Positions 5,493 through 62,163 of a stretch of 64,000 nucleotides of DNA are shown in pieces. Numbering within the stretch: position 1 is the stretch's first letter; every line of letters starts with the position of its first letter. The notes below the pieces were generated by a model. The model had not been told where the DNA came from, ran no database searches, and saw nothing but the letters and a program-made list of their open reading frames with translations. The stretch covers positions 30,927 to 94,926 of IMG/VR virus record IMGVR_UViG_3300030108_003282; one strand, 5' to 3'. This DNA comes from a virus. The position numbers and the translations under genes were made by a program.

Positions 5493-5532
5493 CTTTTATA
5501 CCAACAAACAAACAAACGGTGTTGGTGGAATA

Positions 5533-5640: not shown

Positions 5641-5644
5641 GCTA

Positions 5645-7486: not shown

Positions 7487-7516
7487 GCTAAAACTCCCCC
7501 TTTCCTAACAAACTTA

Positions 7517-8029: not shown

Positions 8030-8229
8030 AACGATACCTCCTTGTTTATTTGTTTATCAATTTCTTTTTGATATTCTTCTAAAGCAAATTCCATTACTTC
8101 ATCATCACTAAAGCCAATATCAATACCTAATGCTTCGGACGCTTCTTTCATAGCCAATTGTCTTTCCTTTTGTATTTGAAGAAGTTTTTCAAATGATGAT
8201 ATATCAATTTTTATTGCCATATTAATCAA
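8005..8229 (-). CDS. Hypothetical protein (neck region)
   Basis: ORF track; tightly packed with neighbours. Confidence 0.55.
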   Translation of the reverse strand: MINMAIKIDISSFEKLLQIQKERQLAMKEASEALGIDIGFSDDEVMEFALEEYQKEIDKQINKEVSLLMKSLFS

Positions 8230-14805: not shown

Positions 14806-16158
14806 TCAAAGAAGGTTGGTAATCTTTCCTTGACCCTTGAAGTAAGAACAACCAGTTTCACCCATTGTGCGATAAAGAGCCTTGTTTCCGAGGTTTCCAA
14901 CACCGAATGGGTTTCCGTTGCTGATACCATCCTCGAAATACTGAGTAGGCTTCATCACAGACAGCCACAAATGGTCAGTATCAAGGAAAAGCATATCGCT
15001 AATCAAACTTGAGTTATTACCAGTAGTAGGCATAGCGGCAACAGGAATCAAAGGAATGTCGTAGTAAGTAGAAACACGGAATCCGACTTCTTGACCCTTA
15101 ACACCACGAACACCGTTCACGGTTGGGACAATTTCTTTTCGGTCCATGAATCGCTCTTGAGCCTGTAATAAGTCAGAAAGCGTTTGAAGGGTGTCATATC
15201 CAGTAAGGATAACCTTTGGTGAACCGCCAGCAACACGGAGTCTTCGGAGCATATCGTTAATAACCGTTAAGGTTAATTGTCGTGCTTCTGCCGAAAGGTA
15301 GCCATCACCAAAAGAAACTTCTGCATCCAAAAACTCGTTTCCTGAATCACTTCTTTGCTTTCCGTAAAGGTGGTCAATTTGTTGGTCAGTAGCAGAATCA
15401 ACAAGGTTTCCACCAGAATTGTCAGCCAATTCGGTAATTTCAGCCGAGTTAGAAACAATCTTCATAAGAGAAGTGTAGCCTCTATCAATAGCGTTTGCCG
15501 TGTTATAAGCCGTAGTTGGAGAATAGTTCTCCAATGGCATAACAAGCATAGTGTTTTGAACTTCAGCGTGATGCTTACCCATGTCTTCTCTCAATTGCGC
15601 TCTAATATCACCGATACCGTCGTCAATCTGAGCCATTTCCATTGAAAGTTCGCTGAAAGCAAATTGATGAGCAATAATTTTTGGGCTCGTAAAGAGAACA
15701 TCGTATTCAGGAGCAATTGATTGAAGACCGTCCGAATCTGAATCTAACGATGCATTTTCTGGAACGCCACCAATTCGGTCTGCTCTCAAAGAATCAGCAC
15801 CATAAAGTGCAGTATTAAGAGTGGTGTTGGAAGCGGCAGAAATGTCCAAAAAGTTTCCAGAACCGCCAGCAGGACGCTTCTTGAGGATTCTCCAACCACT
15901 TGAAGAATATGGTCGCTTTGAAATAACAGACAATGCGTTGCATTCTCGGTTTAACATAGACCAGACCTTTTGGCCGTAAATCTTGTTGTAAAGGTTTGCG
16001 TTAATTCCCGATGGGTCGCTAAATGAACCATCGTGAGCAACATGAATGCCGCTTACGGTTCCTTGAGCCTTAAGCAATTGATTGCTAATGTGGCCCGTTG
16101 CGCTTGTTCCATAGGTTTGTGCTTCTAAATCTGCAATAGTGTTAATATATCCTGTCAT
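14806..16158 (-). CDS. Major capsid protein (HK97 fold)
   Basis: Follows protease; GGVPEN, PKIIAHQFAFSELS, STYYDIPLIP, MLFLDTDHL; strong RBS; codon bias of high expression. Confidence 0.85.
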   Translation of the reverse strand: MTGYINTIADLEAQTYGTSATGHISNQLLKAQGTVSGIHVAHDGSFSDPSGINANLYNKIYGQKVWSMLNRECNALSVISKRPYSSSGWRILKKRPAGGSGNFLDISAASNTTLNTALYGADSLRADRIGGVPENASLDSDSDGLQSIAPEYDVLFTSPKIIAHQFAFSELSMEMAQIDDGIGDIRAQLREDMGKHHAEVQNTMLVMPLENYSPTTAYNTANAIDRGYTSLMKIVSNSAEITELADNSGGNLVDSATDQQIDHLYGKQRSDSGNEFLDAEVSFGDGYLSAEARQLTLTVINDMLRRLRVAGGSPKVILTGYDTLQTLSDLLQAQERFMDRKEIVPTVNGVRGVKGQEVGFRVSTYYDIPLIPVAAMPTTGNNSSLISDMLFLDTDHLWLSVMKPTQYFEDGISNGNPFGVGNLGNKALYRTMGETGCSYFKGQGKITNLL

Positions 16159-16169
16159 GCTAAATCACC

Positions 16170-17438
16170 TCAAAGGTTTCCTCCAACCATTTTATGAATG
16201 TCAGCCCAATCCATTTCGGCTAATTCATCCATAGTAGGGAGTTTGATAGAAGACTCTTCTTGAGCCTTTAGGATGTTTTCCTTCTCAGCAGTCAAAGACT
16301 TGCGAAGTGCGGCAAATTCATCCTTAAGAGAAGCAATTTCGCTTTGAGCATCATATTGAGACTTTGCGAGAATGTTTTCTCTTTGAGAAGTTTCAGCCTT
16401 GAAGCGAGCCTCAAACTGCTTTTGGAGGTTGTCGTAAGCCAACTTCTCTAATTGTTCTTGACGGAAAGCCTCGTAAGCCTTCTCAATGTTTCCAACAGAT
16501 AAGTCAAGGGTTTCTAATTCTTCGTTGTTAAATGCCTTAACAACTGGTAAATCAGAAGCCTTTGGTCGGCCTCCTTCAATAATGATTCTGTCAGCAGGTT
16601 CGCCAATTTCAACACCTGCTCCATCAAGAGTAGGAACATAGGCTTTGGCTTCATCATCCATGTATTCGCCCATACCCTTCTCTTCATCATCCATCATTTC
16701 TTTGTCGTCCTTCATCTTTTCAGACATCATTTTGTCCTTTTCAGACATCATTTTGTCCTTTTCATCCATCAACTTTTCAGACATCATTTTTTCGTCCTTC
16801 ATGTCCATGTTTTCTTCTTCTTCCTTTCTTAGCGTATTGACTTCTTCCATAAGAGCGTCAAGTTCTGCCAATGCTTTTTCAATTCTGGTCATTTTTTTCA
16901 CCTTTTTTGTTTTTTCTTGCTTTAAAATGTCAAATTTTGCTTCTGGATTAATTCCTTTTTCACAAATAGTGACTTCATGTAATTCTAACTTTGAAATTTC
17001 GTTGTATTCCCCTAATTCATCATGGGTTTTCTTAACTTTCTCTAAAGCCTGTCCTCCAATACTGAAACTTCTTAATGAACCTTTTCTAATGCCACGATTA
17101 ATTTCTTTGGCCTTTTCAATATCATCTCTTAATTTGATTACAACAAAGAATCCTACATCATCAACTTCTGTTTTGAATAGTCTCCCTGATTTATCTCGGT
17201 ATGATTCAACAACTTCTCCGACTTGAACATTTGAATGATTTGTCATTACATTTCTAAACTTGGGGTTCTCCATGTATTTCTTTACCGCTTCTTGAAGGGC
17301 TTTAAGTGTGATTAAATCATTTTGCTTATCAACGATTTCAATGCTTGCATATCCTCCAATCATTAAATCGTCTTGGCTTTTGAGAATCCTGAAATCAGAA
17401 GTGTTGTTTCGCATCACCACAGAAGACATTCTTCTCAA
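16170..17438 (-). CDS. Prohead protease (HK97/U35 type) fused to scaffold
   Basis: IGGYASIEIVDKQNDLI, H(SNVQVG), SFSIGG, LHEVTICEKGINPEA; acidic coiled-coil C-half. Confidence 0.9.
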   Translation of the reverse strand: MRRMSSVVMRNNTSDFRILKSQDDLMIGGYASIEIVDKQNDLITLKALQEAVKKYMENPKFRNVMTNHSNVQVGEVVESYRDKSGRLFKTEVDDVGFFVVIKLRDDIEKAKEINRGIRKGSLRSFSIGGQALEKVKKTHDELGEYNEISKLELHEVTICEKGINPEAKFDILKQEKTKKVKKMTRIEKALAELDALMEEVNTLRKEEEENMDMKDEKMMSEKLMDEKDKMMSEKDKMMSEKMKDDKEMMDDEEKGMGEYMDDEAKAYVPTLDGAGVEIGEPADRIIIEGGRPKASDLPVVKAFNNEELETLDLSVGNIEKAYEAFRQEQLEKLAYDNLQKQFEARFKAETSQRENILAKSQYDAQSEIASLKDEFAALRKSLTAEKENILKAQEESSIKLPTMDELAEMDWADIHKMVGGNL

Positions 17439-17459
17439 CCCCTACTAACCATTATCCAG

Positions 17460-17467
17460 TATATAAA
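17460..17467 (-). promoter_or_regulatory. TATA box upstream of protease/MCP
   Basis: GTTCTTTATATAC on the minus strand; same core as 46390, 54254 and 55498. Confidence 0.65.
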
Positions 17468-17474
17468 GAACAAC

Positions 17475-20012
17475 CTATTCTTCGGTAGGAAGGGGTAATT
17501 TGTTATACCTATCTTCATAAATATTCCACTTTCCTTCATCCCCTTCCTTATCAGCAGGAGTTTGTTTATATCCAGTCCATGCAAGCCACATTCTTTGTCC
17601 ATCTACGTCTAAGACTCTATAATGCATTTTAGTTTCAAACTTGTTGCCTTCTAAGAAATATTCATGATAGCCGTCCCTTTGAATGCCTAATCTTATCTTT
17701 CCAGAATCAATAACTTTTCCCTTAGTTACTGTTTTTGCTACTTCTGCTGGATATTTCCCAGCCGCACCGAATAAATCAAAAAGTTCTTCCTCATTCTCGA
17801 CATTAATTGTCCAAAACATATTTTCAGTTTTAAGTTTGATTGCTAATGTTATATTATCATCTTCTCTCGAATAAAGTTTGAATTCACCCTCTCTTAACTC
17901 AGGCGGTGTTTTATATTCACCTTCGACGGCTTTAATATCTTCTTTTTTAATTTCTTCTTCCTGCATGATTTTATCATCATCAGCAACTATTTTATTGTCT
18001 TTTTCGCTAATACCGTCTCTAAGAATAGACCATTGTTTAAGTTTTTTCTCATCAGAATCAAGAACCTCTTCATATAAACTGGGCTGTTTTTCTTTTAAGA
18101 AATTATGTAATTGTTTTGGTGTCTTAGGACCATTCATTTTTAAATGCTGAAAAATAGCAACAGTTAAATCGCTTTGTTTTGATTTCATAATATCAATTAC
18201 CTGTTGCTTCCACATATCTAAATCCATTGTAGCATTTCTAGACATTAGATTATCTTCTTCATAGCCATAGATTGTAAATCCATCTATATCATATTTGATA
18301 ATAATATTTGCTTCTCCATGAATATGGTCAGTAATTTTTATTCCTTTTGTGAATGCTTCAACATCATAATTAAGAGATTTCTTAGTGTCTTGAGAAAGTA
18401 ATTCTAATGTGACTAGTTTATCGGGATGTTCTACTTCGGGAATCTCAATAGGTTTTGCTGAAAACAAACTAAACCCGTCTCCCTTCTTTTTGACTTCATC
18501 TACCTTTACTCGAATAATATCCCCAACATCTACAGAAATTTTTGTATTGAGTGCTTTACCTACATTCAAATAATGTCTTTTCTTTATTTCAACTGCTCCA
18601 GTCATTTCTTCATCAACTGGCCCAACACCCACAGTATAAGAAAATAGATTACTTTTTGTTTTCTTCTTATCTAAAACAATAACATCTAAGTCAACAAACT
18701 TCTTCAATTTAATCCATTTTGGATTTTTCTTAGTGCCAATATAATAAGTTGAAGTAGCGTCTTTAATAACTACTCCTTCAGATGTAGGAATTTGCATCAT
18801 TTCTTCTGCATACTTCTCAATATCTTTTAAATTATCTGCTTGGCGAGTATCTTTCTTTGATGGATATGCTATCGCTTCGCTAGATTTAGAGGAATAGTTA
18901 TTGAATAAAATTGTCATTCGGTTCTCTAATTCTTCGTCTGCCAATGTCTGAGATTCGTGGCGAATAATATCAAAAACATGGCATCGAAGTTTAGCGTCTT
19001 TATATTTCCCTTTGAAGACATGAGCGACGGTATCGGCTCTATGAAGAGGCTCATCATTATTAAAAAGAACCAATTCTCCATCTAAAATACAATCACCATA
19101 CTCTTTTTTCTTTAATTCCTTTACTTGTTCTTTACATTGTTCAGAAATGTCTTTACCATTAAATGAATATATTTTAACATTGTCATCAATTTTATGCAAC
19201 TGGACTCTCATCCCGTCGTATTTTTCTTGAACATACCAGTTGCCACTAAACCCTTTTAATTCATTAATATCATCTACTTCAAAAATTCTATACATGGGTT
19301 TATTAGGAATAATAAACTGCGATATGGACTTTTTCTCATCACTCGGAATAGACTTCTCTAATCCGTCTATATCTTTCAGTTCTTCCCAATCTTCCTCTTC
19401 ATTTTTAGAAAAGAAGATTAGTTCTAACATATCCATAGCAGCCTTTACTTTCGATTCGACCTTTTTTGAGTCTTTTCCGTCTCCGTAATGTTCTATAATA
19501 TAGAGGGCTATGTCGTCCGATTCTAGGTCAAGACCCATAAGACCCTCCGTAATTGTGTCGGGACGCATCCCTTTAACACTATAAATGTCAGCAGATAGGG
19601 CTTTATTATCGTCCCTTAATGCATAATGCACAAATTTAACCATAGTTTCTGGATTATCTAACAATTCTTCAAGAACACCGTCCTTGAACATCGTTGCGAA
19701 AGGGTCAGCAACGATAGATGAGGAATAGCGAAGAAGTTTTACTTTATCAAACAGTTCTTTTGCTTGTCTTGAAGAAGGGTCTTTTGCGTCTTTGTCTTCT
19801 AAATCCTTTTCATCAATAAAGTTTCTCATCTCTTTTCCTGCGGCATCACTCTCATTATAAGAGTCTATAATCATATCAACCGCTTTACGCCAACGACCCG
19901 AATATTCTGTAGGGTCTTGTCTTGCAGATAAATAGGCAACTCTTGTCTTTTCAAATAGACGAAGAATTTCTTGGGAAGGCTGTTTATCCTTCTCAATAGA
20001 ACCCAACTTCAT
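17475..20012 (-). CDS. lig: ATP-dependent DNA ligase, multidomain
   Basis: EKYDG (I), ILDGEL (III), FDII (IIIa), EGVVIK (IV), WIKLK (V), OB fold; extra N- and C-terminal domains. Confidence 0.9.
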   Translation of the reverse strand: MKLGSIEKDKQPSQEILRLFEKTRVAYLSARQDPTEYSGRWRKAVDMIIDSYNESDAAGKEMRNFIDEKDLEDKDAKDPSSRQAKELFDKVKLLRYSSSIVADPFATMFKDGVLEELLDNPETMVKFVHYALRDDNKALSADIYSVKGMRPDTITEGLMGLDLESDDIALYIIEHYGDGKDSKKVESKVKAAMDMLELIFFSKNEEEDWEELKDIDGLEKSIPSDEKKSISQFIIPNKPMYRIFEVDDINELKGFSGNWYVQEKYDGMRVQLHKIDDNVKIYSFNGKDISEQCKEQVKELKKKEYGDCILDGELVLFNNDEPLHRADTVAHVFKGKYKDAKLRCHVFDIIRHESQTLADEELENRMTILFNNYSSKSSEAIAYPSKKDTRQADNLKDIEKYAEEMMQIPTSEGVVIKDATSTYYIGTKKNPKWIKLKKFVDLDVIVLDKKKTKSNLFSYTVGVGPVDEEMTGAVEIKKRHYLNVGKALNTKISVDVGDIIRVKVDEVKKKGDGFSLFSAKPIEIPEVEHPDKLVTLELLSQDTKKSLNYDVEAFTKGIKITDHIHGEANIIIKYDIDGFTIYGYEEDNLMSRNATMDLDMWKQQVIDIMKSKQSDLTVAIFQHLKMNGPKTPKQLHNFLKEKQPSLYEEVLDSDEKKLKQWSILRDGISEKDNKIVADDDKIMQEEEIKKEDIKAVEGEYKTPPELREGEFKLYSREDDNITLAIKLKTENMFWTINVENEEELFDLFGAAGKYPAEVAKTVTKGKVIDSGKIRLGIQRDGYHEYFLEGNKFETKMHYRVLDVDGQRMWLAWTGYKQTPADKEGDEGKWNIYEDRYNKLPLPTEE

Positions 20013-20805: not shown

Positions 20806-21167
20806 TTCTTTTCCTCCTTTTTACCAACTGGATAAATTAAATCTCTTAATTGTCTATAAAGAAGTTCGTACTCTTTACGAAGTTTCGTAGCAGTAGCCAC
20901 TATATCAATGTTCCTTTCATCCATTGACTTCATTTTCTTATTTAACTTCTTGTCTGATTTGATTAGTTCTAATTCTCTAAGAGTCTCAATAAGTTCACCT
21001 AATTTAGTAAAGTCTTGACCAAAAAATTCTGTGGGTTCTGCGGCTTGAAGTGTCTTTTTCAGTTTTCTTCTTCCTTTAGTATCTAAAGAGTCAATAAGTT
21101 TTTTAGGCTTTTGTTTCTCCTCTTTGAGAACAAAATTATCTCCATCTCCGTAGTAATCCCATGTCAT
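20802..21167 (-). CDS. Hypothetical protein
   Basis: ORF track; coupled to neighbours. Confidence 0.65.
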   Translation of the reverse strand: MTWDYYGDGDNFVLKEEKQKPKKLIDSLDTKGRRKLKKTLQAAEPTEFFGQDFTKLGELIETLRELELIKSDKKLNKKMKSMDERNIDIVATATKLRKEYELLYRQLRDLIYPVGKKEEKK

Positions 21168-22744
21168 TCTTCTTCCCCCACATCAGAAAGATTTCTCAAC
21201 TGATTTACAATATCGCCTAATTCATTTGACTTTTCTTGGTATTTGTCAGAAGCATCTTCAAACTCTGTCATTCTTGCAGCATTAAGAGTAGGGAATCCTT
21301 CAAAGAAACCATCTACTAGTCTAGCGTCGGGATTTTCCATCATAAAATCAGTAAATCCTTGAGTAATCGCTCCTTCGGATTCACGAGTAATTTGTGCCAT
21401 TTTATTAGATTGTCTTCTTAGATACGAAAGCATATTGATTCCCTTAGTAAATAATTTTTTAACTGGAGTAGATGGTTCTAATTCTCTGAACATTCCTAAG
21501 AATCTTCCAAACGCTTTTATATTTTCATCTTGGTCAAAAGCGTCAATATCTGTCATTAATCTTTCTAATTTTCTTCTTTCTAAGGCAATCTCTCTTTCTA
21601 ATTCTTGAGTTGCTTCGGCAACATATTTGTCTTTATTCTCGCTTATATCTTTAAATGTGGACATCAGAGACTTGACATCCTCGACACTTCCTGAGCCAAT
21701 AACACGCTTCAAAGATTCATTTAATTTTTGCAACTTTCTTCCAACAATCTTATCTTTATCTTTTAACAGTTTCTCTAATTCACCTATCTTTTCTTCTAAA
21801 AATATCTTAGAAGAAGCAATTTGCCTATTGTTAGCCTGAACTGCTTGAACTTTTCTTAATGCTCTTTCATATTGAACATTTACCCCTAAATCTACATCTT
21901 TCTTTTTTGCTCTTTCCATCATGGATAGCCTTTCTCTTTTGACTCTTCTTCTATCAACAAGATTTCTTGGCTTTCTTTTATATTTTTGAGTATGTAATAA
22001 TTCAAAGACCTTTAAGAAATCAATTGGCTCTTTTCCTTCAACCTCAAAATCTAAATCCAAAATTCCTCTAAGAGTTCTAAATATTCTATTAGCATCAATA
22101 TCTTTTCCTGTTCTTTCTTCTGTTCTTTGGGTTCTGCTTAAATTAAATTTTTTACCAGTTAAAATCCCATCGACCAAAAGTTTATCATATTTATCGTTTA
22201 GATAATCAGGATTCTTCTTAATCATTGTCAGCAAAGTAAGTAATTTACTAGATTTAGCGGCAGTTGCCCCTAATTTAAGATAATCTTTCATAGCACCTCT
22301 AACAACAGTTTTGCCGTCAACAACTTGAACTCTTGCATTTTCGGCAATATCTAAAAGAATATCTTTTTGATAATTTAATTCAGATAATTCTTTGTAAGCA
22401 TCTTTTTCTTCAGATTGCCTACTAATTCTTGAACCCAATGCCTCTTCTTCTAATCTTGCTTCTCTTTCTTCTTCGGTAGAGAGAATCTCTTCCTCGGTTG
22501 TTAAATCAGACTCTCCTTCTTCAAGGCTTCTCCTTGCATCTTCTCTTGCTTCTTCTTCATTCTTCGCAATAGTAATATATTTACGATATTCAATCATATT
22601 TTGAGAAGTAAGGTTGTTTATTAAAGAAACCTTGATTAAAGAAGCATCAGCGCCCTCATTAACTAATGAGGTAGTTTCTTCGTCTAAATTAGCCTTTCTT
22701 AAAATGTTAAGCAAAGATTTATCTTTGGCTAATTCATAATACAT
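21164..22744 (-). CDS. Large coiled-coil protein (putative internal virion protein)
   Basis: 526 aa, charged helical; GAGGTGA RBS. Confidence 0.65.
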   Translation of the reverse strand: MYYELAKDKSLLNILRKANLDEETTSLVNEGADASLIKVSLINNLTSQNMIEYRKYITIAKNEEEAREDARRSLEEGESDLTTEEEILSTEEEREARLEEEALGSRISRQSEEKDAYKELSELNYQKDILLDIAENARVQVVDGKTVVRGAMKDYLKLGATAAKSSKLLTLLTMIKKNPDYLNDKYDKLLVDGILTGKKFNLSRTQRTEERTGKDIDANRIFRTLRGILDLDFEVEGKEPIDFLKVFELLHTQKYKRKPRNLVDRRRVKRERLSMMERAKKKDVDLGVNVQYERALRKVQAVQANNRQIASSKIFLEEKIGELEKLLKDKDKIVGRKLQKLNESLKRVIGSGSVEDVKSLMSTFKDISENKDKYVAEATQELEREIALERRKLERLMTDIDAFDQDENIKAFGRFLGMFRELEPSTPVKKLFTKGINMLSYLRRQSNKMAQITRESEGAITQGFTDFMMENPDARLVDGFFEGFPTLNAARMTEFEDASDKYQEKSNELGDIVNQLRNLSDVGEEE

Positions 22745-41881: not shown

Positions 41882-42285
41882 ACTGTATCATGTTATGGCA
41901 GTAAGCCACAGGCTATAATACTGGCGGTTTTACCTTGAAATAATTAAAGATAATGCGTTAAAATAGAGCATTTAAAGCATTTCGTTCTAAATGAGAAGAA
42001 TTAAAAAATTTGAAACAAAGCCATATGGTTGTAGATTATGAATGCGGGAAATGTTGTTAATAACTACCATTTTCATCTATTGTCTTATTTTCATCTTTCT
42101 TAACAGTTCTCTATAGAACGCTATTGGTAACTACAAAATGTTTGTTTACACTCATCTATGACAAATATAATTATATGCCTATCATCTCTAAATGATAGTT
42201 ATTAAATACTCTAACACCATATGGTTGGCTTTGCCAGTTTGGACGAAACCCCAGCGAACTGGGGCTACGGAGGGAAAAGCCAGCA

Positions 42286-42792
42286 TCATTCCTCCTCTTG
42301 ACCTCCTTCGTCGGATTTAACCGCAGGTGGGGTCATTGCTGGGATTTCACCGTTCATGGTTCCGTCCCAACGACCTTCTTTGTAGCCCTTAACGAGAGCA
42401 TCATAGGCTTTTTTGCCCATAGATTGAGCAAATGCCTCGATGTCGTCAAAAGCGCCACCAGTTCGCCCATGAGGGAGAATAACGGTGGTAATCAAGTCAG
42501 GGTTAGTAATACCCGCAAAGGCAGCAATGACCGCATTCTTCACAGAATTGGCAGACAAATCCACTTCTTCGGGCAAAGCCGATTCTCGGCCTCTTCGGGC
42601 GGCTGGGAAATCCGAGTAAGGACTCCCAATTGAGCGAATAGCAGTCCAGTAGGTGGAGCGCAAATCATCGCTATCTGTTGCATTTCCAAGTGTAATAGAC
42701 AAAGAAATGGCATTACCCACGTCTCCCCTATCTTCACGCTCAAGCCATGCTTGAACGGCATTTGTGTTCTTAATCCAATTTTCCTTCTTCAT
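42286..42792 (-). CDS. Cassette A protein, paralog family 1
   Basis: LRSTYWTAIRSIGS, FPAARRGRES, PHGRTGG and RWDG shared with 44061..44585. Confidence 0.8.
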   Translation of the reverse strand: MKKENWIKNTNAVQAWLEREDRGDVGNAISLSITLGNATDSDDLRSTYWTAIRSIGSPYSDFPAARRGRESALPEEVDLSANSVKNAVIAAFAGITNPDLITTVILPHGRTGGAFDDIEAFAQSMGKKAYDALVKGYKEGRWDGTMNGEIPAMTPPAVKSDEGGQEEE

Positions 42793-42944
42793 ATCAATTC
42801 CTCCAAAAAGGGTTTGATGCCCCGTTTTCCCTCCGAAGCACTAAATCGGAGACGGTGGCGTATATGGTTGCTTTTGCATTAACACTCGCAAAGCGAAAAG
42901 CAACCATATGGTTGTGACTTTGCTCACAACCCCGAAGGGCGGAT

Positions 42945-43256
42945 TTACATCCAGTTTTGATAGTATTGGGCCTTATATTTACCAGTATCACGGTTAAAGT
43001 GCATCAAGGTGATTTTACCTTCCCATGTTTGGGCTAATGCCAAGAATGAGGTCAATGCTGGAGTTAAACCAGTGATATAGAGAGTTAATACTTCAACCTC
43101 TTCAATTTCATAGAGAAAATCACTTGCTTGGCCTTCAAGCAAATCAAAGTCCATAGGGTCCTCAATATGTCCATATATGTATTTATCAATTATCTCACCA
43201 TTAGCGTTCTTAATCTCATGTCGTCCTTTACAAAGCCCTACTTCCATCACTCGCAT
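42945..43256 (-). CDS. Cassette B protein (small alpha/beta)
   Basis: GLCKGRHEI...LYITGLTPAL...LMHFNR; ATG 38 nt from the palindrome arm. Confidence 0.7.
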   Translation of the reverse strand: MRVMEVGLCKGRHEIKNANGEIIDKYIYGHIEDPMDFDLLEGQASDFLYEIEEVEVLTLYITGLTPALTSFLALAQTWEGKITLMHFNRDTGKYKAQYYQNWM

Positions 43257-43360
43257 GATTTAATCGGAAAAACTTGGATAATAGCGGGGTATCGCAAAGT
43301 GCTACCATATGGTTGTTCTTTGATAAAACCATACTATTGGCGCATATAAACACTTGGGGT

Positions 43361-43600
43361 ATGTCATATGTGCATGGATTGGGAGATGCCCAAGAAAGGT
43401 TTGCTAAAGATTGGGACTACAAATACGGCTGGATTAACGATTTGAAAATTATTTGCCCTCATTGTGGTTCCGAACATACTGAGGTTGAAGGATTTGAACA
43501 AAGCGATTCTTGGGAGTTTGGTCAAGAATGGACTATTGAATGCTGGTGCGAAGGTTGCAGCAAAGAGTTTGAATACATCCATGAGGTGGATTATTCCTAA
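43361..43600 (+). CDS. Cassette C Zn-ribbon protein
   Basis: CPHC...CEGC; ATG 38 nt from the arm. Confidence 0.7.
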   Translation: MSYVHGLGDAQERFAKDWDYKYGWINDLKIICPHCGSEHTEVEGFEQSDSWEFGQEWTIECWCEGCSKEFEYIHEVDYS

Positions 43601-43689
43601 TTAGATGCCTTCGGGCTCTTTATCAAAGATACGACCATATGGTAGTGCTTTGTTTTACCCCAGTTAATTTGGGTCTGTATGATTAAATC

Positions 43690-43950
43690 ATGCAGTCAGT
43701 ATGGATTATTGAGCAGAAGCAAGGAAACGATTGGAAACCTCAGATGTATCTCGGTGTTCATCGCTGGGAAAACAATGCAACGGCAGAAATGCACAGGCAC
43801 ACGCAGAATCTCCAAATCAACGAAATGCGAACCATTCCAGATTTGCGCTCTCCGAAGCGTGGTGAAGGAAAGCGCATCTTTGGCATGAAAATGCGAGAAA
43901 TCGCTGAGATTCCATCACACTTCCGAGTTTGCCAACTCAGAATACGTTGA
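43690..43950 (+). CDS. Cassette D protein
   Basis: ATG 37 nt from the arm; GATTAAATC-ATG shared with cassette B. Confidence 0.65.
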   Translation: MQSVWIIEQKQGNDWKPQMYLGVHRWENNATAEMHRHTQNLQINEMRTIPDLRSPKRGEGKRIFGMKMREIAEIPSHFRVCQLRIR

Positions 43951-44060
43951 TGGCCTTTGGGGGGCTTTGCCCTCCATTGGGTATTACAAAGCATTACCAT
44001 ATGGTTTTACTTTGTATAAACCCCCCGAAAGGGGCTACAAGGGGGAAAAGCCTTGTAGAA

Positions 44061-44585
44061 TCATTCCTCTTCGGAACCTCCATTATCAGCCTTTACAGGC
44101 GTTGGTTCAATTTGAGGAACACCGTCTTTCAACGAAAGACCGTCCCAGCGATTTTCCTTGATGGACTTAACCATGTAGGAATGCGCCTTACTGCGGAACG
44201 AATCAACCAATTCGCTGAAGGAGCCATAAACTCCACCAGTTCGGCCATGTGGCACAATAACTGACAAAATCATGTCGTGGTATTCAGTAGGGATTGCAGC
44301 AATAGCACCTGCCACGGTTTCCTCCACAGTCGCCAAAACAAGTTCCTGTTCGTCTGACAAGGTTGATTCTCGGCCTCGTCGTGCCGCAGGAAAACCCTCC
44401 ATAGTGGAACCAATTGAACGAATTGCCGTCCAATAGGTGCTTCTTAGTTCATCAGTACCCGCATTATCTCCCAATGTGAGAGAAAGCATCACTGCGTTCA
44501 AATTGTCGCTCGGTTCTTGAGTTTCAGCCCAAGCCCGAACCTTGTTCGTGTTTAGTGTCCAATTTTTCATCTTCATTTTTTTCAC
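44061..44585 (-). CDS. Cassette E protein, paralog family 1
   Basis: Clear homolog of cassette A; GAGGTGA RBS suggests the start is a few codons in. Confidence 0.8.
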   Translation of the reverse strand: MKKMKMKNWTLNTNKVRAWAETQEPSDNLNAVMLSLTLGDNAGTDELRSTYWTAIRSIGSTMEGFPAARRGRESTLSDEQELVLATVEETVAGAIAAIPTEYHDMILSVIVPHGRTGGVYGSFSELVDSFRSKAHSYMVKSIKENRWDGLSLKDGVPQIEPTPVKADNGGSEEE

Positions 44586-44741
44586 CTCTTCCTTTCAAAA
44601 AGATACTTCAAGTCTATTTCCCCCTTGAAGCACTAATAGGGGCAAGGTAGCAAATAAGGTTGTTTTCATGCAAAGCAAAAAACAACCATATGGTATTGCT
44701 TTGTAAATACCGTATAGAATAGAGAACAAGACAATAAAAGC

Positions 44742-45005
44742 ATGTCAAGAGAAATAGTGCTTAGACTTGCTGAAATGTCTCCTTTGTTGAAGAACTGGAT
44801 TGAACCCCAAGTAAATAACGCCGTTAAGCGTGATTTTACCGAGTTTGCTGATGAACCTAATGCTATGATTGGAATATTCATCATGGAGCAGTCTATTGCT
44901 GGCTTTGCTAAAGAAATGGCTAAATGTGCTATGGAGTTCTTGTATGAGGAATTGCAGACCCAATTGCAGGATATTACCTCTGATTTGCTCAAAGAGTGGA
45001 TTTGA
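44742..45005 (+). CDS. Cassette F protein
   Basis: ATG 38 nt from the arm; TTCG hairpin downstream. Confidence 0.7.
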   Translation: MSREIVLRLAEMSPLLKNWIEPQVNNAVKRDFTEFADEPNAMIGIFIMEQSIAGFAKEMAKCAMEFLYEELQTQLQDITSDLLKEWI

Positions 45006-45122
45006 GGAGCATTCTGCCACCTGCGCCATCCTGAGCATCTGCTGATGTAAAACTGCTCCCTTCGGGTTTATCCAAAGTAACACCATATGGTGGTGTTAAT
45101 GCTTTGCATTAATAGAACCATA

Positions 45123-45652
45123 AAAGAAACATGGTCGCAACGGGACAGGGAAAAGCCTAATGCAGTTTTTTTCGTGCTAATTTGTCCGTTGCGACTTTTG
45201 AATATGAAAAACGCCGCCTACTCCATTAATCCGACTTACCCCCGTACTTTGTTTTTCATGCCTTCGTGCAGATAACTAGTATCTCGTACACTCCATGTTT
45301 CTTTCGGGCTTTACTGCGTTTGTTTCGGCTTTGTTTCCGATTGGTATATATGGCCAATCAACCAAAGGAATATGAAAGGTGGGAAGAAGAACTGGGTATC
45401 TCCATCATAGAAGCGATTGGGTCGCTCTCACTTATAGACGCTCTTATGTTATCTTAAGAGCCTATGAACCATTCTTACGAACATGATTAGTAGTCATGCG
45501 CCTTTTGAGCCTTAATCGCTTTCACAGGGAACGAATAATTAACCATTTAGTCATCATATCCGCTTTGTGTCCCACTACAGGAAAGAATGTGCATTAACCC
45601 CGTCTATTGGGCCATTGATGCTATTCCCCTTCGGGGTTGCATGCCCCGAAGC
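45123..45652 (-). ncRNA. Putative structured ncRNA (cassette G)
   Basis: No convincing ORF; multiple nested stems; promoter geometry as in cassette E. Confidence 0.5.
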
Positions 45653-45834
45653 AAAAAATTGGTTCTTACGCCAAATAAGGTTATTAATTGCAAAGCAATC
45701 AACAACCATATGGTTTGAATATATCAAAGAACGTAGAACTTTCTTATTTGAGGATAGTCAATCCAACTGAAATAGGGAAAACATTTCATCCCCAAAAAAT
45801 CTGTCAATTTTGACATAGCAGTTTCAACTGTGGT

Positions 45835-46200
45835 TATATTAATTCGTATTCATATTCTTATATTCAATATTAGTATTATAGTAAAATAAATCGGTTGTCT
45901 CATCTTCGGGAGGGAATGAGACGAGACAACTCAAGGAAGAATCACTAAGGTTATGCAACATAAGTAAAAATATAATTTATACTGTCTCATTATCTCATCA
46001 TCTCATCATCATCATCATCTTCTTCTTCTCTTACAGAACCCCTTATTTTCTTATGGGGTGTGTAGAGAAATATATCCATGATTCGCATGAGACGAGATGA
46101 GACAACTTATTTTTGCAGGTTTCCGCAAGGTTTTGTAGGGTTGTGTTGCATAACCCCATCGTCTCACAATGAGACAATAGCCGAGACAGTCTCATGCGTC
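45835..46200. repeat. Origin-like region: AT-rich tract plus GAGAC/GTCTC repeats
   Basis: About 10 copies of (T/C)GAGAC or GTCTCA in both orientations; TCATCA microrepeat; at the strand switch. Confidence 0.5.
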
Positions 46201-46373
46201 GGATAACAAAACTTATTTCATTGGGCAAACTATTGAAAGAAATAAATACGAATTGTTTTATTGTAATGTATTGTTGTGATTTGTTTAATTTAGAATCAAG
46301 TGAAAGAAGTTGCAGGTGTCTGCGCCCTGCCTAACAAAAAGGGTAGTAATCCGTCCAATGAGGTGCATTTGAG

Positions 46374-46398
46374 GTGATTTCTGCACTCCTTTATATAC
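46374..46398 (+). promoter_or_regulatory. Promoter, copy 1 (GTGATTTYTGCACTCCTTTATATAC)
   Basis: 24/25 identical to 55482..55506; contains the TATA box. Confidence 0.75.
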
Positions 46399-46448
46399 CC
46401 AAAAGTAAGTGTTGAAGATACCCCGCAAAGGGGAAGGAGAGAGATAAC

Positions 46449-46925
46449 ATGGATGATACCACATGGGAAAGCCTCGTCATTGAGGTGAACGAATACCTAG
46501 AAGCCGACACTACGCTTGATGCAGGATTGCGTCAAGTTATTGAACTGAACCTGCAAATTGGGACAAACAACCCTAATGAGCGAACTGCCGCAGAAGGAGC
46601 ATTAAAGGCTCTTTTGAAGGGAAGAGACGGAACTCCATTCCGTCGAGGCCAAAAGAGCGCAGTTCCAGCCGCAGTTCGTGTTTCAATTGACCGAATCTGT
46701 GGAGTTGTTGAAGAAGCCGCATTAGGCTACTACAACCACGATGCAATTATTGGTGCAATTACCATGAAGCACATCAAATCTGGTGGCGGTGCTTTTGACA
46801 ACGGAGAAGAATACGCTTCTGCTGTTGTTAAGCGAACCAGAACCAATCTTGGCAAAATGTTCAAGAGTGGTTCTTGGGACGGTAGCGTTGATTCCCTCTT
46901 AGGAAACAACGAAACCACGCTTTGA
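46449..46925 (+). CDS. Distant member of paralog family 1
   Basis: FRRGQKSAVP, KSGGGAFDN and SWDGS align to A/E motifs. Confidence 0.75.
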   Translation: MDDTTWESLVIEVNEYLEADTTLDAGLRQVIELNLQIGTNNPNERTAAEGALKALLKGRDGTPFRRGQKSAVPAAVRVSIDRICGVVEEAALGYYNHDAIIGAITMKHIKSGGGAFDNGEEYASAVVKRTRTNLGKMFKSGSWDGSVDSLLGNNETTL

Positions 46926-58589: not shown

Positions 58590-59753
58590 ATGAAACTTAA
58601 AATATTAAAACCAGATGATAGCCAAATGTATCATACTTGCAATATTACTTGCGAAACCTTTCTTTTCCCCGAAGAAAAAATAGTGAGTTATTCTAGGTCA
58701 GCAAAAGACCCAATTCAAGCAGGACTTGAATCTTATTGGAGAAATCTTATTTCTCCAAGAAGAAAAAGACGGAATTATTACAATGATTATGGTTTTGGTG
58801 AGCAGTTTCATCATATTGTTTTCATTGAAGAATGCCCAGTTGTTCTTTCAAGAGAAGGTATTCGTTATCAATTAAACGGTAAGTCTTACAGTCTAGCAAC
58901 TATTTGTTCTGCTTTGGCTAGAGTTACTTACAAAGCGTGTTTTAACAAAGATGGAGCAACATTGTTATCTTCACTATATGCGACCCTAGATTTACCAGAA
59001 AATGTCAAGTATTGCTTAGAAAATCGTGCACCGTATCATTTTATTCATGATTGGGTCAAACAAGATGTTCGTTTGAATGTCATGCAAATTGATGATAAAA
59101 TGCTGGCTATGGAAATTAGTGATGGTGTTTGGGGTGAAATTACTCCCAAACAGTTGGATTCATACTGTAATTTTTACTTGCATGGTAAGAAAAGGGGAAG
59201 TTGGAAACTTCTAGGCCCAAAGAAATTATATACTAGATTAATGGGTCGTGAACCAACGGATGCGGAGGATAAAGTTATGCGAGCGTTTTTAATGCAAAAT
59301 CGTATGCAAGACATCGTAGATGCAAGAGCATTGGAATTAGTTGCTGATATGTTAGTACAGCATAAAGGACGCATTTCTGCCCATTATGATGAAAGTGGAG
59401 TTTTGACTACTCTCTTTATTAGAGGTAAAGACTACGATTGGAAACTTACTAATAACCGATATAAGTCTGGTATTCAAATGGTTTCTACCTTTGTTTGGCA
59501 ACCTCTTAAAGAAACAATAAGAGATGAAGAGGATGTTTCAATTATTATTGGAAGCAAATACACTGAACCTGACTGGCGAGGGCCGATTTGTATTGATAAC
59601 ATGGCAGAAGGTTCTCCATTAGGCGACCAATTCGCAACTAGGGCATTAGCCCTTCTAAACGATTCTTTAACAATAAAAATAGTAAATACAATTAAGTCTT
59701 ATCTTAAGGCTGAACCGAATGAATATAGGATTGATAGAAATGATTTGCGATGA
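58590..59753 (+). CDS. Hypothetical protein; possible E2-like C-terminal domain
   Basis: WRGPICID resembles the E2 catalytic G.IC(L/I)D; weak. Confidence 0.4.
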   Translation: MKLKILKPDDSQMYHTCNITCETFLFPEEKIVSYSRSAKDPIQAGLESYWRNLISPRRKRRNYYNDYGFGEQFHHIVFIEECPVVLSREGIRYQLNGKSYSLATICSALARVTYKACFNKDGATLLSSLYATLDLPENVKYCLENRAPYHFIHDWVKQDVRLNVMQIDDKMLAMEISDGVWGEITPKQLDSYCNFYLHGKKRGSWKLLGPKKLYTRLMGREPTDAEDKVMRAFLMQNRMQDIVDARALELVADMLVQHKGRISAHYDESGVLTTLFIRGKDYDWKLTNNRYKSGIQMVSTFVWQPLKETIRDEEDVSIIIGSKYTEPDWRGPICIDNMAEGSPLGDQFATRALALLNDSLTIKIVNTIKSYLKAEPNEYRIDRNDLR

Positions 59754-60597
59754 GTGTGGTTGTAGCGAAAATATTTATGATGAAACTCTTGGAGAAAGAG
59801 TCTGCGCTGATTGTGGATTAGTTTTAGTTCAAGAACTATTTGAAGAAACGGTCCATATTATGGACAAAGTGGGTAATCTAAAACACTCAGCCGATAAAGG
59901 CAAATTAGGCTCAGTCATTACTGGAAAAGGCTCTTTCAAATTTAATAAGTTTGGAAAAAACAGCGTTGTTCCACAACATATTCAAAGGGCTCTTATGCAT
60001 TGTAATATGGTTCTAGCGCAAGTTGCGCCTAACCTAAATCTTAACGAAAGAGTTGAAAAAATATATATGGAACTTCACAACAAAAATATTTTTGGTAGAA
60101 CACAATTAGAAGCAAGAGCAACTGCTGTTGTTTTTTACGCTCTAAAAGAAAACGGAACTCCGCATCCTATGAAAGATGTTATGGCTGAATTCAATCCTAA
60201 TGAAAAGTCTGTTAAAAGACTAGTTAGGAAAATTAATCAAGTTTATCGCAATAGTGCAAACTATGTTCAAGTTAATCCTCAGTATCAACTTGAGCAAACC
60301 TTATCTAAGGTAAGTAATGATTTAGAGTTTAGAAGACAATGCTTGAAAGTATTGGAGTTCTTTGAAGCAAAAGTAGAAAAGAACACCTTTAATAAAGGAA
60401 GGTCTTATTATGCGGCAATCATTTGGATTAGTGCTAAAATGAATGTCAATACTTCAATCAAAGATAAATTACTCTCGGAGAAAACAGGCTTTTCTCGTTG
60501 GGTGATTTGGAGACAGACCAAAGAAATACTTGGCATGGTTGGTCTTGAAAATGCTCGTCAAGTAAAAGGAAAACAATTAAGTGAATTAGGTGAATAA
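59740..60597 (+). CDS. tfb: Transcription factor B (TFIIB) homolog
   Basis: CDECG...GERVCADCGLV Zn ribbon; two cyclin repeats (GR..EA.ATAVVFYA; GR...AAIIWIS). Confidence 0.85.
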   Translation: MICDECGCSENIYDETLGERVCADCGLVLVQELFEETVHIMDKVGNLKHSADKGKLGSVITGKGSFKFNKFGKNSVVPQHIQRALMHCNMVLAQVAPNLNLNERVEKIYMELHNKNIFGRTQLEARATAVVFYALKENGTPHPMKDVMAEFNPNEKSVKRLVRKINQVYRNSANYVQVNPQYQLEQTLSKVSNDLEFRRQCLKVLEFFEAKVEKNTFNKGRSYYAAIIWISAKMNVNTSIKDKLLSEKTGFSRWVIWRQTKEILGMVGLENARQVKGKQLSELGE

Positions 60598-61734: not shown

Positions 61735-62163
61735 ATGCAACTAGAATTAGGAATAGTAATAGGAAGCCTGACTACGGGAATAATTTTTATGATTATTACC
61801 CGTTTTATTAACCGCCCCGTATTAGAACCAACTATACATGATAGGTTCAATACATTAGTATGGTCTAAAATAACTAAACAAGGTATGGAGAGAAATAAGA
61901 ACAACTTCAAATCTTTTACTCAATCAATTTATGGTTGGGATAAAGATGATGAAGGTAACTTAACTCCTAATTGGGATGAACAAGCAGTTATTGATGAAAT
62001 GAAAAGAATGAGAAATCAAAATCAAAGTTGGTCAGGAATCGCTAGAACATTGAATGAAAAAGGATTCAAAGGAAAAAAGGGCGGTAAATTTACCCCACAA
62101 ACAATTAAAAGAACTATGGAAAATCCTTTCCATGATAAGAGAACTCAATTTAAGGAGGAATAA
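61735..62163 (+). CDS. TM-anchored protein with serine-recombinase-type DNA-binding ('Recombinase') domain
   Basis: YGW....GNL.PN..EQAVI...S..GIAR.LN..G...K.GGKF....I; no catalytic domain. Confidence 0.7.
   Translation: MQLELGIVIGSLTTGIIFMIITRFINRPVLEPTIHDRFNTLVWSKITKQGMERNKNNFKSFTQSIYGWDKDDEGNLTPNWDEQAVIDEMKRMRNQNQSWSGIARTLNEKGFKGKKGGKFTPQTIKRTMENPFHDKRTQFKEE

What the first reader, a model, noticed from the sequence alone, without database searches (positions are those of the whole stretch)
42016..45714. Array of single-gene cassettes joined at a conserved palindrome (integron/shufflon-like) in an archaeal virus
Seen: eight perfect ACCATATGGT cores (42216, 42903, 43304, 43634, 43996, 44685, 45082, 45705), none noticed elsewhere in 64 kb. 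Internal cores are flanked by inverted arms CAAAG-N4-9 / N4-10-CTTTG. Each interval (330-689 bp) holds exactly one transcription unit, in mixed orientation (-,-,+,+,-,+,-). The outer sites (42216, 45705) keep only the inward-facing arm, so each cassette behaves as a unit with terminal inverted repeats joined at CAT|ATG. The site at 43996 lies between two convergent 3' ends, so it is not only a promoter element. Inference: a symmetric recombination site lets cassettes be acquired, inverted, duplicated (A and E) or lost, giving a modular early-gene (host takeover/anti-defence) locus. No complete recombinase is in the window. I do not recognise this as a described system; the nearest analogies are integron attC arrays and T4-type PeSL cassettes.
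Basis: partly seen in the sequence, partly recalled or inferred. Interest (0 to 1): 0.92.

Follow-up and report, generated by a model that had tools for sequence, protein, structure and literature searches.

The report
Palindrome-jointed gene cassettes in marine archaeal virus
A marine archaeal virus (magrovirus) carries a row of single-gene units, each joined to the next by the same perfect 10-base palindrome, which sits at a fixed distance upstream of the gene starts like a promoter control site and is also the exact point where related viruses have swapped, flipped, gained or lost units.

Summary
ACCATATGGT occurs 8 times in 3.5 kb and nowhere else in the complete 94.9-kb virus genome. The virus is a group-B-like magrovirus, with a halovirus-like portal, a thermosome and a split PolB.

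All 15 relatives found through the neighbouring helicase (61% identity or more) have such an array. Across 16 arrays there are 116 exact cores and 5 one-mismatch variants.

The core centre lies 50-57 nt upstream of outward-reading ATGs. The consensus is ATGGT-N3-5-CTTTG-N4-6-ACC-TATA box-about 22 nt-ATG, which fits an archaeal BRE/TATA promoter with leaderless starts.

CTTTG arms and perfect cores also occur where only 3' ends meet, so the element is more than a promoter part.

Comparative data support the cassette idea:
- Homology blocks end at the core.
- One cassette end is joined to at least 12 different neighbours in 39 sequences.
- Whole cassettes are inverted, swapped, inserted or replaced core-to-core.

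No tyrosine or serine recombinase is encoded, and no read-level test could be run.

Best reading: an archaeal-virus counterpart of T4 PeSL mobile regulatory cassettes, in which a palindromic operator or upstream site doubles as an orientation-free crossover point. An integron- or shufflon-type enzyme mechanism is not shown. I found no description of this array in the magrovirus papers I could search.

The parts
41996..42035 (.). Variant 'master' site: A-rich run, then CAAAG fused directly to CCATATGGT (core variant GCCATATGGT at 42020-42029). There is one per genome, 100-800 bp left of the first core.
   Evidence: Near-identical 30-mer in 13 relatives, including distant ones, always on the same side of the array (blastn).
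42216..42225 (.). Core 1 (left edge). Only the right, inward arm is present (tgg-CTTTG).
42226..42902 (-). Cassette A. Gene 42286-42792 (168 aa, fam0). Its promoter arm has a 9-nt spacer. Predicted 5' UTR of about 43 nt with GGAGG. A hairpin plus T-run follows the stop codon.
42903..42912 (.). Core 2, between A's 5' end and B's 3' end.
42913..43303 (-). Cassette B. Gene 42945-43256 (103 aa, no family). Leaderless geometry: the ATG lies 52 nt from the core centre.
43304..43313 (.). Core 3, shared by the divergent promoters of B and C.
43314..43633 (+). Cassette C. Gene 43361-43600 (79 aa, zinc-ribbon-like). The ATG lies 52 nt from the core centre.
43634..43643 (.). Core 4, between C's terminator and D's promoter.
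43644..43995 (+). Cassette D. Gene 43690-43950 (86 aa). In relatives it is found in other positions and inverted.
43996..44005 (.). Core 5, between the convergent 3' ends of D and E. No promoter on either side, yet the core is perfect and both arms are present.
44006..44684 (-). Cassette E. Gene 44061-44585 (fam0 paralog of A). Long-spacer promoter arm, 5' UTR with a hairpin.
44685..44694 (.). Core 6, shared by the divergent promoters of E and F.
44695..45081 (+). Cassette F. Gene 44742-45005 (87 aa). The ATG lies 52 nt from the core centre.
45082..45091 (.). Core 7, between the 3' ends of F and G.
45092..45704 (-). Cassette G. No conserved ORF. Encodes a structured non-coding RNA of about 450-500 nt, transcribed from the arm at core 8.
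   Evidence: Many stops in all six frames. No fam0 remnant. 31 of 116 predicted pairs show compensatory change in only 4 sequences, and G-U pairs fit the - strand. No Rfam family.
45705..45714 (.). Core 8 (right edge). Only the left, inward arm is present.
   Evidence: Homology with the right flank starts exactly here in relatives.
46449..46925 (+). Third fam0 paralog, outside the array, conserved in relatives.

Best explanation
The locus is a hyperplastic accessory-gene region of a magrovirus, built from self-contained transcription units. Each unit carries, at its 5' end, half of a palindromic site followed by an archaeal promoter: ATGGT-N3-5-CTTTG-N4-6-ACC-TATA box, with the transcription start about 52 nt from the palindrome centre and most mRNAs leaderless. 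At its 3' end it carries a hairpin/T-run terminator followed by the other half-site, CAAAG-N-ACCAT. Two abutting units rebuild the full element CAAAG-N-ACCATATGGT-N-CTTTG.

I infer that this element is the binding site of one dimeric regulator, viral or host, acting as operator or upstream activating site. That regulator would control the whole set as one temporal class, probably early.

Every junction carries the same perfect palindrome, which reads alike on both strands. It is therefore also the point at which recombination between any two junctions, within one genome or between co-infecting genomes, deletes, inserts, swaps, replaces or inverts whole units without damaging them.

Shown here: the motif, its geometry, its conservation, and the core-precise mosaic among relatives. 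Inferred: protein binding, timing of expression, and the enzymology of the exchange. The likeliest route is short-homology or template-switch recombination by general viral or host functions (XPF-like and Cas4-like nucleases, UvrD helicase and ligases are encoded) rather than a dedicated recombinase.
For: The motif is real and confined.
- 8 of 8 cores in the genome lie in 3.5 kb.
- In five full relatives all cores lie in one array per genome.
- 15 of 15 relatives found through the helicase at 61% identity or more have arrays.
- 116 exact cores stand against 5 one-mismatch variants, while flanks are 70-93% identical.

Promoter geometry.
- ATGs of outward ORFs cluster 50-57 nt from the centre: 32 arms, against 3.5% of first ORF starts falling at 50-56 nt from random positions.
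- A second class at 61-70 nt carries GGTGA/GGAGG just before the ATG.
- An A/T-rich TATA-like octamer lies about 27 nt before the ATG.

Symmetric element.
- CTTTG is present on 62 of 67 arms facing a 5' end and 48 of 57 arms facing a 3' end, against a 2.8% background.

Junction role.
- 92 of 255 blastn block ends inside arrays fall 0-30 nt past a core centre; only 6 fall in the 50 nt before one.
- Junction alignments show homology stopping at the core, with the arms travelling with their cassette.
- The A cassette (79-94% identical) is joined to at least 12 different neighbours.
- A full-length inversion of one cassette separates two collinear arrays. Cassette D is inverted core-to-core in L201 and L222.
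- There is a one-cassette indel, and a single cassette at 95.9% identity between flanks at 85-86%.
- The closest relative, L218, has flanks 92.6% identical but the order x-A-C-D-y-E-B-G-F against A-B-C-D-E-F-G.

Precedents: T4 PeSLs (PMC2839356, PMC4122927); a PeSL-like motif reported for halovirus HGTV-1 (PMC3950731); and conserved regulatory sequences before early anti-defence genes of archaeal viruses (PMC11065993).
Against: - No binding protein is identified. The only cassette protein present in every array (fam0) has a generic helical fold with no informative structural match.
- There are no expression data. Start sites and timing are inferred from geometry only.
- The perfectly shared stretch is only 10-12 bp, which is short for ordinary homologous recombination. 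This leaves room for a site-specific enzyme.
- Perfect cores at convergent junctions (43996, 45082) have no promoter to serve. The regulatory role alone does not explain their conservation.
- The arm spacers vary (3-10 nt), which is odd for a rigid dimer site.
Confidence: 0.6

Rival explanations
1. A dedicated site-specific system. An unrecognised viral or host recombinase or nuclease binds the symmetric site, possibly as a folded hairpin or cruciform, and cuts within CATATG. It rejoins cassettes in any order and orientation. This would be an integron- or shufflon-like shuffling machine in an archaeal virus, with the promoter geometry simply travelling along with the cassette.
For: - Crossovers are confined to a 10-bp core, and the arms stay with their cassette.
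- All 10 positions are invariant even at promoter-less junctions.
- A palindrome allows both inversion and excision, and both are seen.
- In single-stranded DNA, CAAAG can pair with CTTTG around the core at 4 of 6 sites.
- Many ORFs of the genome have no family.
Against: - No PF00589 or PF00239 domain is found in the complete genome.
- The ORF with a PF07508 fragment is absent from three complete array-bearing relatives.
- The hairpins are weak (-4 to -9 kcal/mol) and inconsistent, and the spacers are not complementary.
- The fixed 52-nt distance to gene starts is unexplained by a pure recombination site.
Confidence: 0.2
2. The site is purely regulatory. The palindrome is only an operator or activator site. 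Cassette differences among relatives arise from ordinary illegitimate or homologous recombination anywhere, and selection keeps only products that break between intact units. On this view the core has no mechanistic part in the exchange.
For: - The promoter geometry is strong.
- No recombinase is found.
- Intergenic spacers are short, so any viable breakpoint must lie near a core.
- Conserved regulatory sequences before diverse small early genes are known in other archaeal viruses without any claim of shuffling (PMC11065993).
Against: - Breakpoints are not merely intergenic. Block ends pile up within 0-20 nt past the centre, and very few fall in the 50 nt before it.
- Both arms of an inverted cassette are retained end to end.
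- At least 12 partners are all joined through an intact core.
- Random breaks would often leave duplicated, truncated or missing cores. Only 5 near-cores are seen against 116 exact ones.
Confidence: 0.15
3. The cores are initiator-binding repeats of a replication origin, because the array lies at the strand switch and at the GC-skew minimum.
For: - The cumulative GC skew is lowest at 44-46 kb, and gene orientation switches there.
- AT-rich non-coding stretches flank the array.
Against: - The sites are spread over 3.5 kb with a gene between each pair, and they keep a fixed distance to gene starts.
- The skew can be explained by coding-strand bias.
- The number and spacing of sites vary freely among relatives.
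Confidence: 0.03

Closest known systems
PeSL (promoter-early stem-loop) mobile regulatory cassettes of T4-type phages (Arbiol et al. 2010, PMC2839356; Comeau et al. 2014, PMC4122927)
   Same: - A short conserved promoter-plus-terminator motif separates small, mostly ORFan genes in a hyperplastic region.
- Insertions, deletions and replacements between related genomes have their ends at the motif.
- Recombination between the motifs is the proposed cause.
   Different: - The host domain and promoter type differ: archaeal BRE/TATA with leaderless starts, not sigma-70.
- The shared element here is a perfect 10-bp palindrome placed upstream of the promoter and shared by two neighbouring units.
- Units therefore occur in both orientations, and whole-cassette inversions are seen.
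- Identity between junctions is only 10-12 bp.
- There is a single array per genome.
- Mini-circles were not tested.
PeSL-like motif of haloarchaeal myovirus HGTV-1 (Sencilo et al. 2013, as summarised in PMC3950731)
   Same: - It is an archaeal tailed virus.
- A conserved motif with a TATA-like part and an inverted repeat precedes many ORFs.
- Its authors proposed roles in transcription control and genome shuffling.
   Different: - The sequence differs. HGTV-1 has only 4 scattered CCATATGG in 144 kb.
- Its motif precedes most ORFs of one genome arm rather than forming one compact array.
- I could not read the primary paper, so the details are second-hand.
- As far as I could see, shuffling there was a suggestion, whereas here core-precise rearrangements are documented among relatives.
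Conserved regulatory sequences of early/anti-defence genes in archaeal viruses (Bhoobalan-Chitty et al. 2024, PMC11065993)
   Same: - Clusters of small single genes of unrelated sequence are each preceded by a nearly identical regulatory sequence with a BRE/TATA promoter.
- In some viruses there are inverted repeats, thought to bind an Aca-like repressor.
   Different: - Those viruses infect Sulfolobales.
- Their repeats overlap the BRE or the promoter rather than lying at -52.
- No palindromic joint is shared by adjacent units, and no cassette shuffling is described.
- Early timing and anti-defence function are unproven here.
Integron attC cassette arrays
   Same: - There is an array of single-gene cassettes separated by imperfect inverted repeats.
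- Cassette content differs among relatives.
   Different: - There is no IntI-type integrase.
- Cassettes carry their own promoters and lie in both orientations.
- The site is defined by an invariant sequence, not by a conserved fold of variable sequence.
GvpE-responsive upstream activating sequences between the divergent gvp promoters of Halobacterium (from my own knowledge, not checked here)
   Same: An upstream element adjacent to the BRE is shared in the middle between two divergent archaeal promoters.
   Different: That is a single cellular locus. It is not repeated, not palindromic in the same way, and has no role in recombination.

Membership tests
PeSL-type mobile regulatory cassettes | A conserved composite promoter-plus-terminator motif repeated in the intergenic spaces of a variable region | tested here: met
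   A promoter arm and a hairpin/T-run terminator abut every core. The motif is repeated 8 times in this genome and 2-10 times in relatives.
PeSL-type mobile regulatory cassettes | Differences between related genomes (indels, replacements) end at the motifs | tested here: met
PeSL-type mobile regulatory cassettes | Sigma-70-type early promoter of a T4-like phage | tested here: not met
   The virus is archaeal. A TATA-like box lies about 27 nt before leaderless ATGs.
PeSL-type mobile regulatory cassettes | Excised mini-circles joined at the motif | not testable with these tools
Integron | An IntI tyrosine recombinase next to the array | tested here: not met
   No PF00589 match in the complete 94.9-kb genome; the control genomes all matched.
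Integron | Promoterless cassettes in one orientation, read from a common promoter | tested here: not met
   Each cassette has its own promoter arm, and orientations are mixed.
Integron | attC sites conserved in structure but variable in sequence | tested here: not met
   The core sequence is invariant, 116 exact against 5 near. The hairpins are weak and inconsistent.
Shufflon / DNA invertase systems | A serine (Hin/Gin) or tyrosine (Rci) invertase | tested here: not met
   No PF00239 and no PF00589. An ORF with a PF07508 fragment is present only in this genome.
Shufflon / DNA invertase systems | Inversion switches alternative segments of one gene or one promoter | tested here: not met
   The units are complete independent genes with their own signals.
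Archaeal-virus early/anti-defence regulatory-sequence gene sets (PMC11065993) | A near-identical regulatory sequence with a BRE/TATA promoter before diverse small single genes | tested here: met
   There are 12 shared families and 20 singleton cassettes behind the same element.
Archaeal-virus early/anti-defence regulatory-sequence gene sets (PMC11065993) | Immediate-early expression and anti-defence activity | not testable with these tools
   No transcript data. The cassette proteins have no family.
Archaeal-virus early/anti-defence regulatory-sequence gene sets (PMC11065993) | An Aca-like regulator that binds the motif | tested here: inconclusive
   No HTH or RHH domain was found in the array or its flanks. 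The fold of fam0 is uninformative.
Magroviruses (viruses of Marine Group II / Poseidoniales), group B | Halovirus-like head-tail module, own replication genes, thermosome, split family-B polymerase, marine origin | tested here: met
   - Portal similar to HCTV-5/HVTV-1.
- Cpn60/TCP-1 thermosome and ATP-dependent ligase.
- PolB in two ORFs, and an RFC-like ATPase.
- The split polymerase is described for group B in PMC5434244.
- Relatives occur in TARA and marine JGI contigs.
The host itself was not tested.

The most novel reading that the evidence does not exclude
The palindrome is the substrate of an as yet unrecognised, orientation-blind site-specific recombination or cut-and-ligate activity. 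That activity would let abundant marine archaeal viruses assemble and exchange ready-to-express gene cassettes: a natural 'plug-and-play' cassette system of a new enzymatic kind, unrelated to integron integrases or invertases.
Probability: 0.17. Interest if true: 0.92.

Novelty: new variant of a known kind. Interest (0 to 1): 0.72.

Why it matters
Magroviruses are among the most abundant archaeal viruses of the surface ocean. Their hosts are uncultured, so almost nothing is known about how they control genes or acquire accessory genes.

This locus offers three things:
- A precise, searchable regulatory signature that marks one co-regulated gene class. By analogy with other archaeal viruses this is a way to find early or anti-defence genes. 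The class includes a new structured RNA and a widespread protein family of unknown function (300 clusters at 50% identity).
- The clearest comparative case I know of in which archaeal-virus gene cassettes are exchanged, permuted and inverted at a single 10-bp joint. It extends the PeSL idea across domains and adds orientation freedom.
- A defined 28-40-bp element for binding and recombination assays.

Tried and rejected
- Bacterial promoter readings (sigma-70, Bacteroidota -33/-7, T4 MotA-type) were considered early and dropped. The spacing does not fit, and the virus proved archaeal.
- Host-genome use of the element: a scan of one genome each from 185,579 prokaryote species with both arms required gave about 37 single hits, as expected by chance. 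It gave one array, on a 14.7-kb contig binned as 'Altibacter', which carries fam0 genes and is most likely a mis-binned virus fragment.
- Cassette G as a decayed fam0 gene: rejected. The profile finds nothing in six frames.
- fam0 function: no Pfam or PHROG family and no PDB sequence match. Foldseek found no match at E <= 0.001. VIA-align gave only generic three-helix-bundle hits at Z <= 8.6. The ESM Atlas gave no usable hit.
- The ORF at 61735-62163 with a PF07508 'Recombinase' DNA-binding fragment, as the array's partner: rejected, because it is absent from array-bearing relatives.
- A different palindrome (ATGAGCTCAT) in a distant helicase relative proved to be a local tandem repeat, not a cassette array.
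- HGTV-1 does not share the core.
The primary HGTV-1 paper is not held.
- Assembly chimeras as the cause of the mosaics: unlikely. The identity shared between junctions (10-12 bp) is shorter than assembler k-mers, and the same patterns recur in independent TARA, JGI and ENA assemblies.

Full report
**Observation.** ACCATATGGT occurs exactly eight times in the window, at 42216, 42903, 43304, 43634, 43996, 44685, 45082 and 45705. Allowing one mismatch gives 14 matches against 1.4 expected from shuffles. The window is bases 30927-94926 of a 94,926-bp IMG/VR virus record rated complete, and that record holds only these eight copies. The six internal cores are flanked by CAAAG-N4-9 and N4-10-CTTTG. 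The two outer cores keep only the inward arm. Each of the seven intervals (330-689 bp) holds one unit. Six are short ORFs. The seventh has no conserved ORF but is a structured RNA.

**What the genome is.** The portal resembles those of the haloarchaeal siphoviruses HCTV-5, HVTV-1 and HCTV-1 and of a Methanomassiliicoccales virus. The genome also encodes:
- a group II chaperonin and an archaeal/eukaryotic-type ATP-dependent ligase;
- a family-B polymerase split into two ORFs, an RFC-like ATPase and a Cas4-like nuclease;
- an XPF/ERCC4 nuclease;
- a UvrD-type helicase and a ribonucleotide reductase;
- a TFIIB/TFB homolog.

This is the gene set of magroviruses, and the split polymerase is described for group B (PMC5434244). 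Relatives come from TARA and marine JGI assemblies. 'Archaeal virus' is therefore supported. The array lies where the leftward late block meets the rightward replication block.

**Distribution.** A pattern scan of IMG/VR found about 25 distinct contigs with arrays of 3-12 cores. An independent sample, drawn through the neighbouring helicase, gave 15 loci at 61-86% identity. All of them have cores upstream of the helicase. Seven loci at 31-38% identity have none. In five full records every core lies in one array per genome. One 184.7-kb record has two arrays and two helicase/TFB copies, so it is probably two genomes joined. Across 16 arrays there are 116 exact cores and 5 with one mismatch. The surrounding DNA is only 70-93% identical. 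All ten positions are therefore under strong constraint or are kept uniform by exchange.

**Promoter geometry.** I read outward from each core. The first ATG opening an ORF of 40 or more codons clusters 50-57 nt from the palindrome centre, with the mode at 52-53. This covers 32 arms; with random positions in the same loci, about 3.5% of first ORF starts fall at 50-56 nt. A second group at 61-70 nt has GGTGA or GGAGG a few bases before the ATG.

Aligned on the ATG, the arms read ATGGT-N3-5-CTTTG-N4-6-ACC-(C/T)TA(A/T)ATA-about 22 nt-ATG. An A/T-rich octamer centred about 27 nt before the start codon is what an archaeal TATA box looks like on a leaderless mRNA. The longer class fits the same start point plus a short leader with a Shine-Dalgarno sequence. 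In the window, B, C, D and F follow the short form, with ACC 33-34 nt before the ATG in all four. A, E and G have a 9-10-nt spacer, a TATAAGGTT box on the other strand and long leaders. I infer that the palindrome centre lies about 52 nt upstream of the transcription start. That is a position typical of an upstream regulator site, and at 43304 and 44685 one site serves two divergent promoters.

**More than a promoter part.** The CTTTG arm is present on 62 of 67 arms facing a 5' end. It is also present on 48 of 57 arms facing a 3' end, against a 2.8% background. At 43996 and 45082, two 3' ends meet and there is no promoter on either side. The core is still perfect and both arms are present. On 3' arms the terminator T-run abuts CAAAG directly. 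The spacers on the two sides of a site differ in length and are not complementary. As single-stranded DNA the sites fold only weakly (-4 to -9 kcal/mol), and the arms pair in 4 of 6 cases. So the element is recognised by sequence. Each cassette carries a half-site at both ends, whether or not its own transcription needs it.

**Cassettes as units of exchange.**
- Splitting 16 arrays at the cores gives 100 cassettes: 12 shared families and 20 singletons. Only the fam0 family (A/E type, two copies per array plus a third outside) is universal.
- Order differs even among close relatives. The ncRNA cassette sits last, second to last, or between the two fam0 cassettes. D and E, and F and the RNA cassette, are swapped in some pairs.
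- Of 255 blastn block ends inside arrays, 92 fall 0-30 nt past a core centre and only 6 fall in the 50 nt before one.
- Junction alignments show the inner arm conserved up to the core and unrelated sequence beyond it.
- A 286-bp cassette aligns end to end with the reverse complement of its counterpart in an otherwise collinear array.
- L174 and L179 differ by one 397-bp core-to-core unit. One fam0 cassette between them is 95.9% identical while its neighbours are 85-86% identical.
- A metagenome scan with the A-cassette arm plus core found 33 marine contigs. Together with six known arrays, the same cassette end (79-94% identical) is joined through the core to at least 12 different neighbours.
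- The closest relative, L218, has flanks 92.6% identical but the order x-A-C-D-y-E-B-G-F instead of A-B-C-D-E-F-G. Its cassette identities range from 74 to 94%.
- In L201 and L222 cassette D is inverted from core to core.
- In more distant relatives, 31 of 199 homologous cassette pairs are inverted relative to the flanks.

The identity shared between junctions is shorter than assembler k-mers, and the patterns recur in independent assemblies. Chimeric assembly is therefore an unlikely cause.

**Mechanism.** The comparative record shows insertion/deletion, permutation, allelic replacement and inversion, all with ends inside or at the 10-bp core. A palindrome is both a direct and an inverted repeat of itself, so exchange between two cores can give any of these products while leaving each unit with promoter and terminator intact.

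No tyrosine or serine recombinase domain is found in the complete genome. One 142-aa ORF (61735-62163) matches part of the DNA-binding 'Recombinase' domain of large serine recombinases. It is missing from three complete array-bearing relatives, so it is not the array's partner.

I therefore favour exchange by general recombination or template switching at a short shared regulatory site, as proposed for T4 PeSLs (PMC2839356, PMC4122927). The very short identity and the perfect cores at promoter-less junctions keep a site-specific enzyme as a live rival. Read-level evidence could not be obtained.

**Comparison with known systems.** The nearest concept is the PeSL cassette of T4-type phages. A PeSL-like motif (a TATA-like part plus an inverted repeat) was reported for the halovirus HGTV-1, with the same suggestion (PMC3950731). 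That genome lacks this core. Conserved regulatory sequences before small early and anti-defence genes are documented for Sulfolobales viruses (PMC11065993). This supports, by analogy only, the idea that the array is an early accessory set under one regulator. Integron and shufflon membership fails on the recombinase, on cassette expression and on site type. Two magrovirus papers searched for such terms do not mention a palindrome or promoter motif. A full-text search for the core sequence returned 52 papers; the 20 listed were all unrelated, mostly constructs and primers.

**Verdict.** I class the locus as a new variant of a known kind: a mobile regulatory cassette in an archaeal virus, with a palindromic, orientation-free joint.

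Noticed in passing
window 45130-45660 (- strand): Cassette G encodes a conserved structured RNA of about 450-500 nt with no conserved ORF. 31 of 116 predicted pairs show compensatory changes among only 4 homologs. There is no Rfam family. It is present in most close relatives, at varying positions in the array.
   Followed up: partly
window 41996-42035: A unique variant site (A-run, then CAAAG fused directly to CCATATGGT, then TGTA) is nearly identical in 13 relatives, including distant ones. It always lies 100-800 bp left of the first core. It is more conserved than any neighbouring sequence and may be the control site of the leftward block or a nucleation site for the regulator.
   Followed up: partly
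window 59719-60597 (+): A virus-encoded TFIIB/TFB homolog (zinc ribbon plus first cyclin fold; E 3.6e-5 to human TFIIB). It is conserved in all four array-bearing relatives that could be checked, at 36-75% identity. It could redirect host RNA polymerase to a viral promoter class. I did not find it mentioned in the magrovirus paper I searched for 'transcription' (PMC5434244).
   Followed up: partly
window 61735-62163 (+): A 142-aa ORF matches only the first half of Pfam 'Recombinase' (PF07508), the DNA-binding domain of large serine recombinases, and has no catalytic domain. It is absent from relatives G001, G003 and G005.
   Followed up: yes
window 45715-46448: About 730 nt with no ORF lie between the last core and the third fam0 gene. 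The stretch is 79-93% identical in relatives and sits at the strand switch and GC-skew minimum. It may be an origin or another RNA.
   Followed up: no
window 42263-42285, 44040-44060, 45145-45160 (- strand transcripts): Cassettes A, E and G share a GGCTTTTCCC motif near their predicted 3' ends. A and E also share TTAGTGCTTC near their predicted 5' ends. This suggests common RNA-level signals for this subclass with long spacers.
   Followed up: no
fam0 genes: window 42286-42792, 44061-44585, 46449-46925: There are three paralogs per genome of an all-helical protein of about 170 aa, with conserved P-x-RRG-x-S-x-LP, HG(R/K)(T/S)GG and GRWDG motifs and an acidic tail. A profile search found 300 clusters (at 50% identity) in a 1.8-billion-protein library, with no named relative and no informative fold match.
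   Followed up: partly
G001 (IMGVR_UViG_3300021958_000021, 184,733 bp): This record has two separate arrays (5306-9029 and 99604-103195) and two TFB copies of different identity. It is probably two related genomes joined in assembly.
   Followed up: no
L154 (NZ_NZTP01000027.1, 'Altibacter sp.' MAG, 14.7-kb contig): This is the only prokaryote-genome contig with an array. It carries three fam0 genes and the master site, so it looks like a magrovirus fragment binned into a flavobacterial MAG.
   Followed up: partly
G000 18480-19391, 20949-21644, 15035-18303 (before the window): Before the window lie a Cas4-like PD-(D/E)XK nuclease, an XPF/ERCC4-HhH2 nuclease and a family-B polymerase split into two ORFs. 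With the UvrD helicase and two ATP-dependent ligases, these form a possible general recombination toolkit.
   Followed up: no
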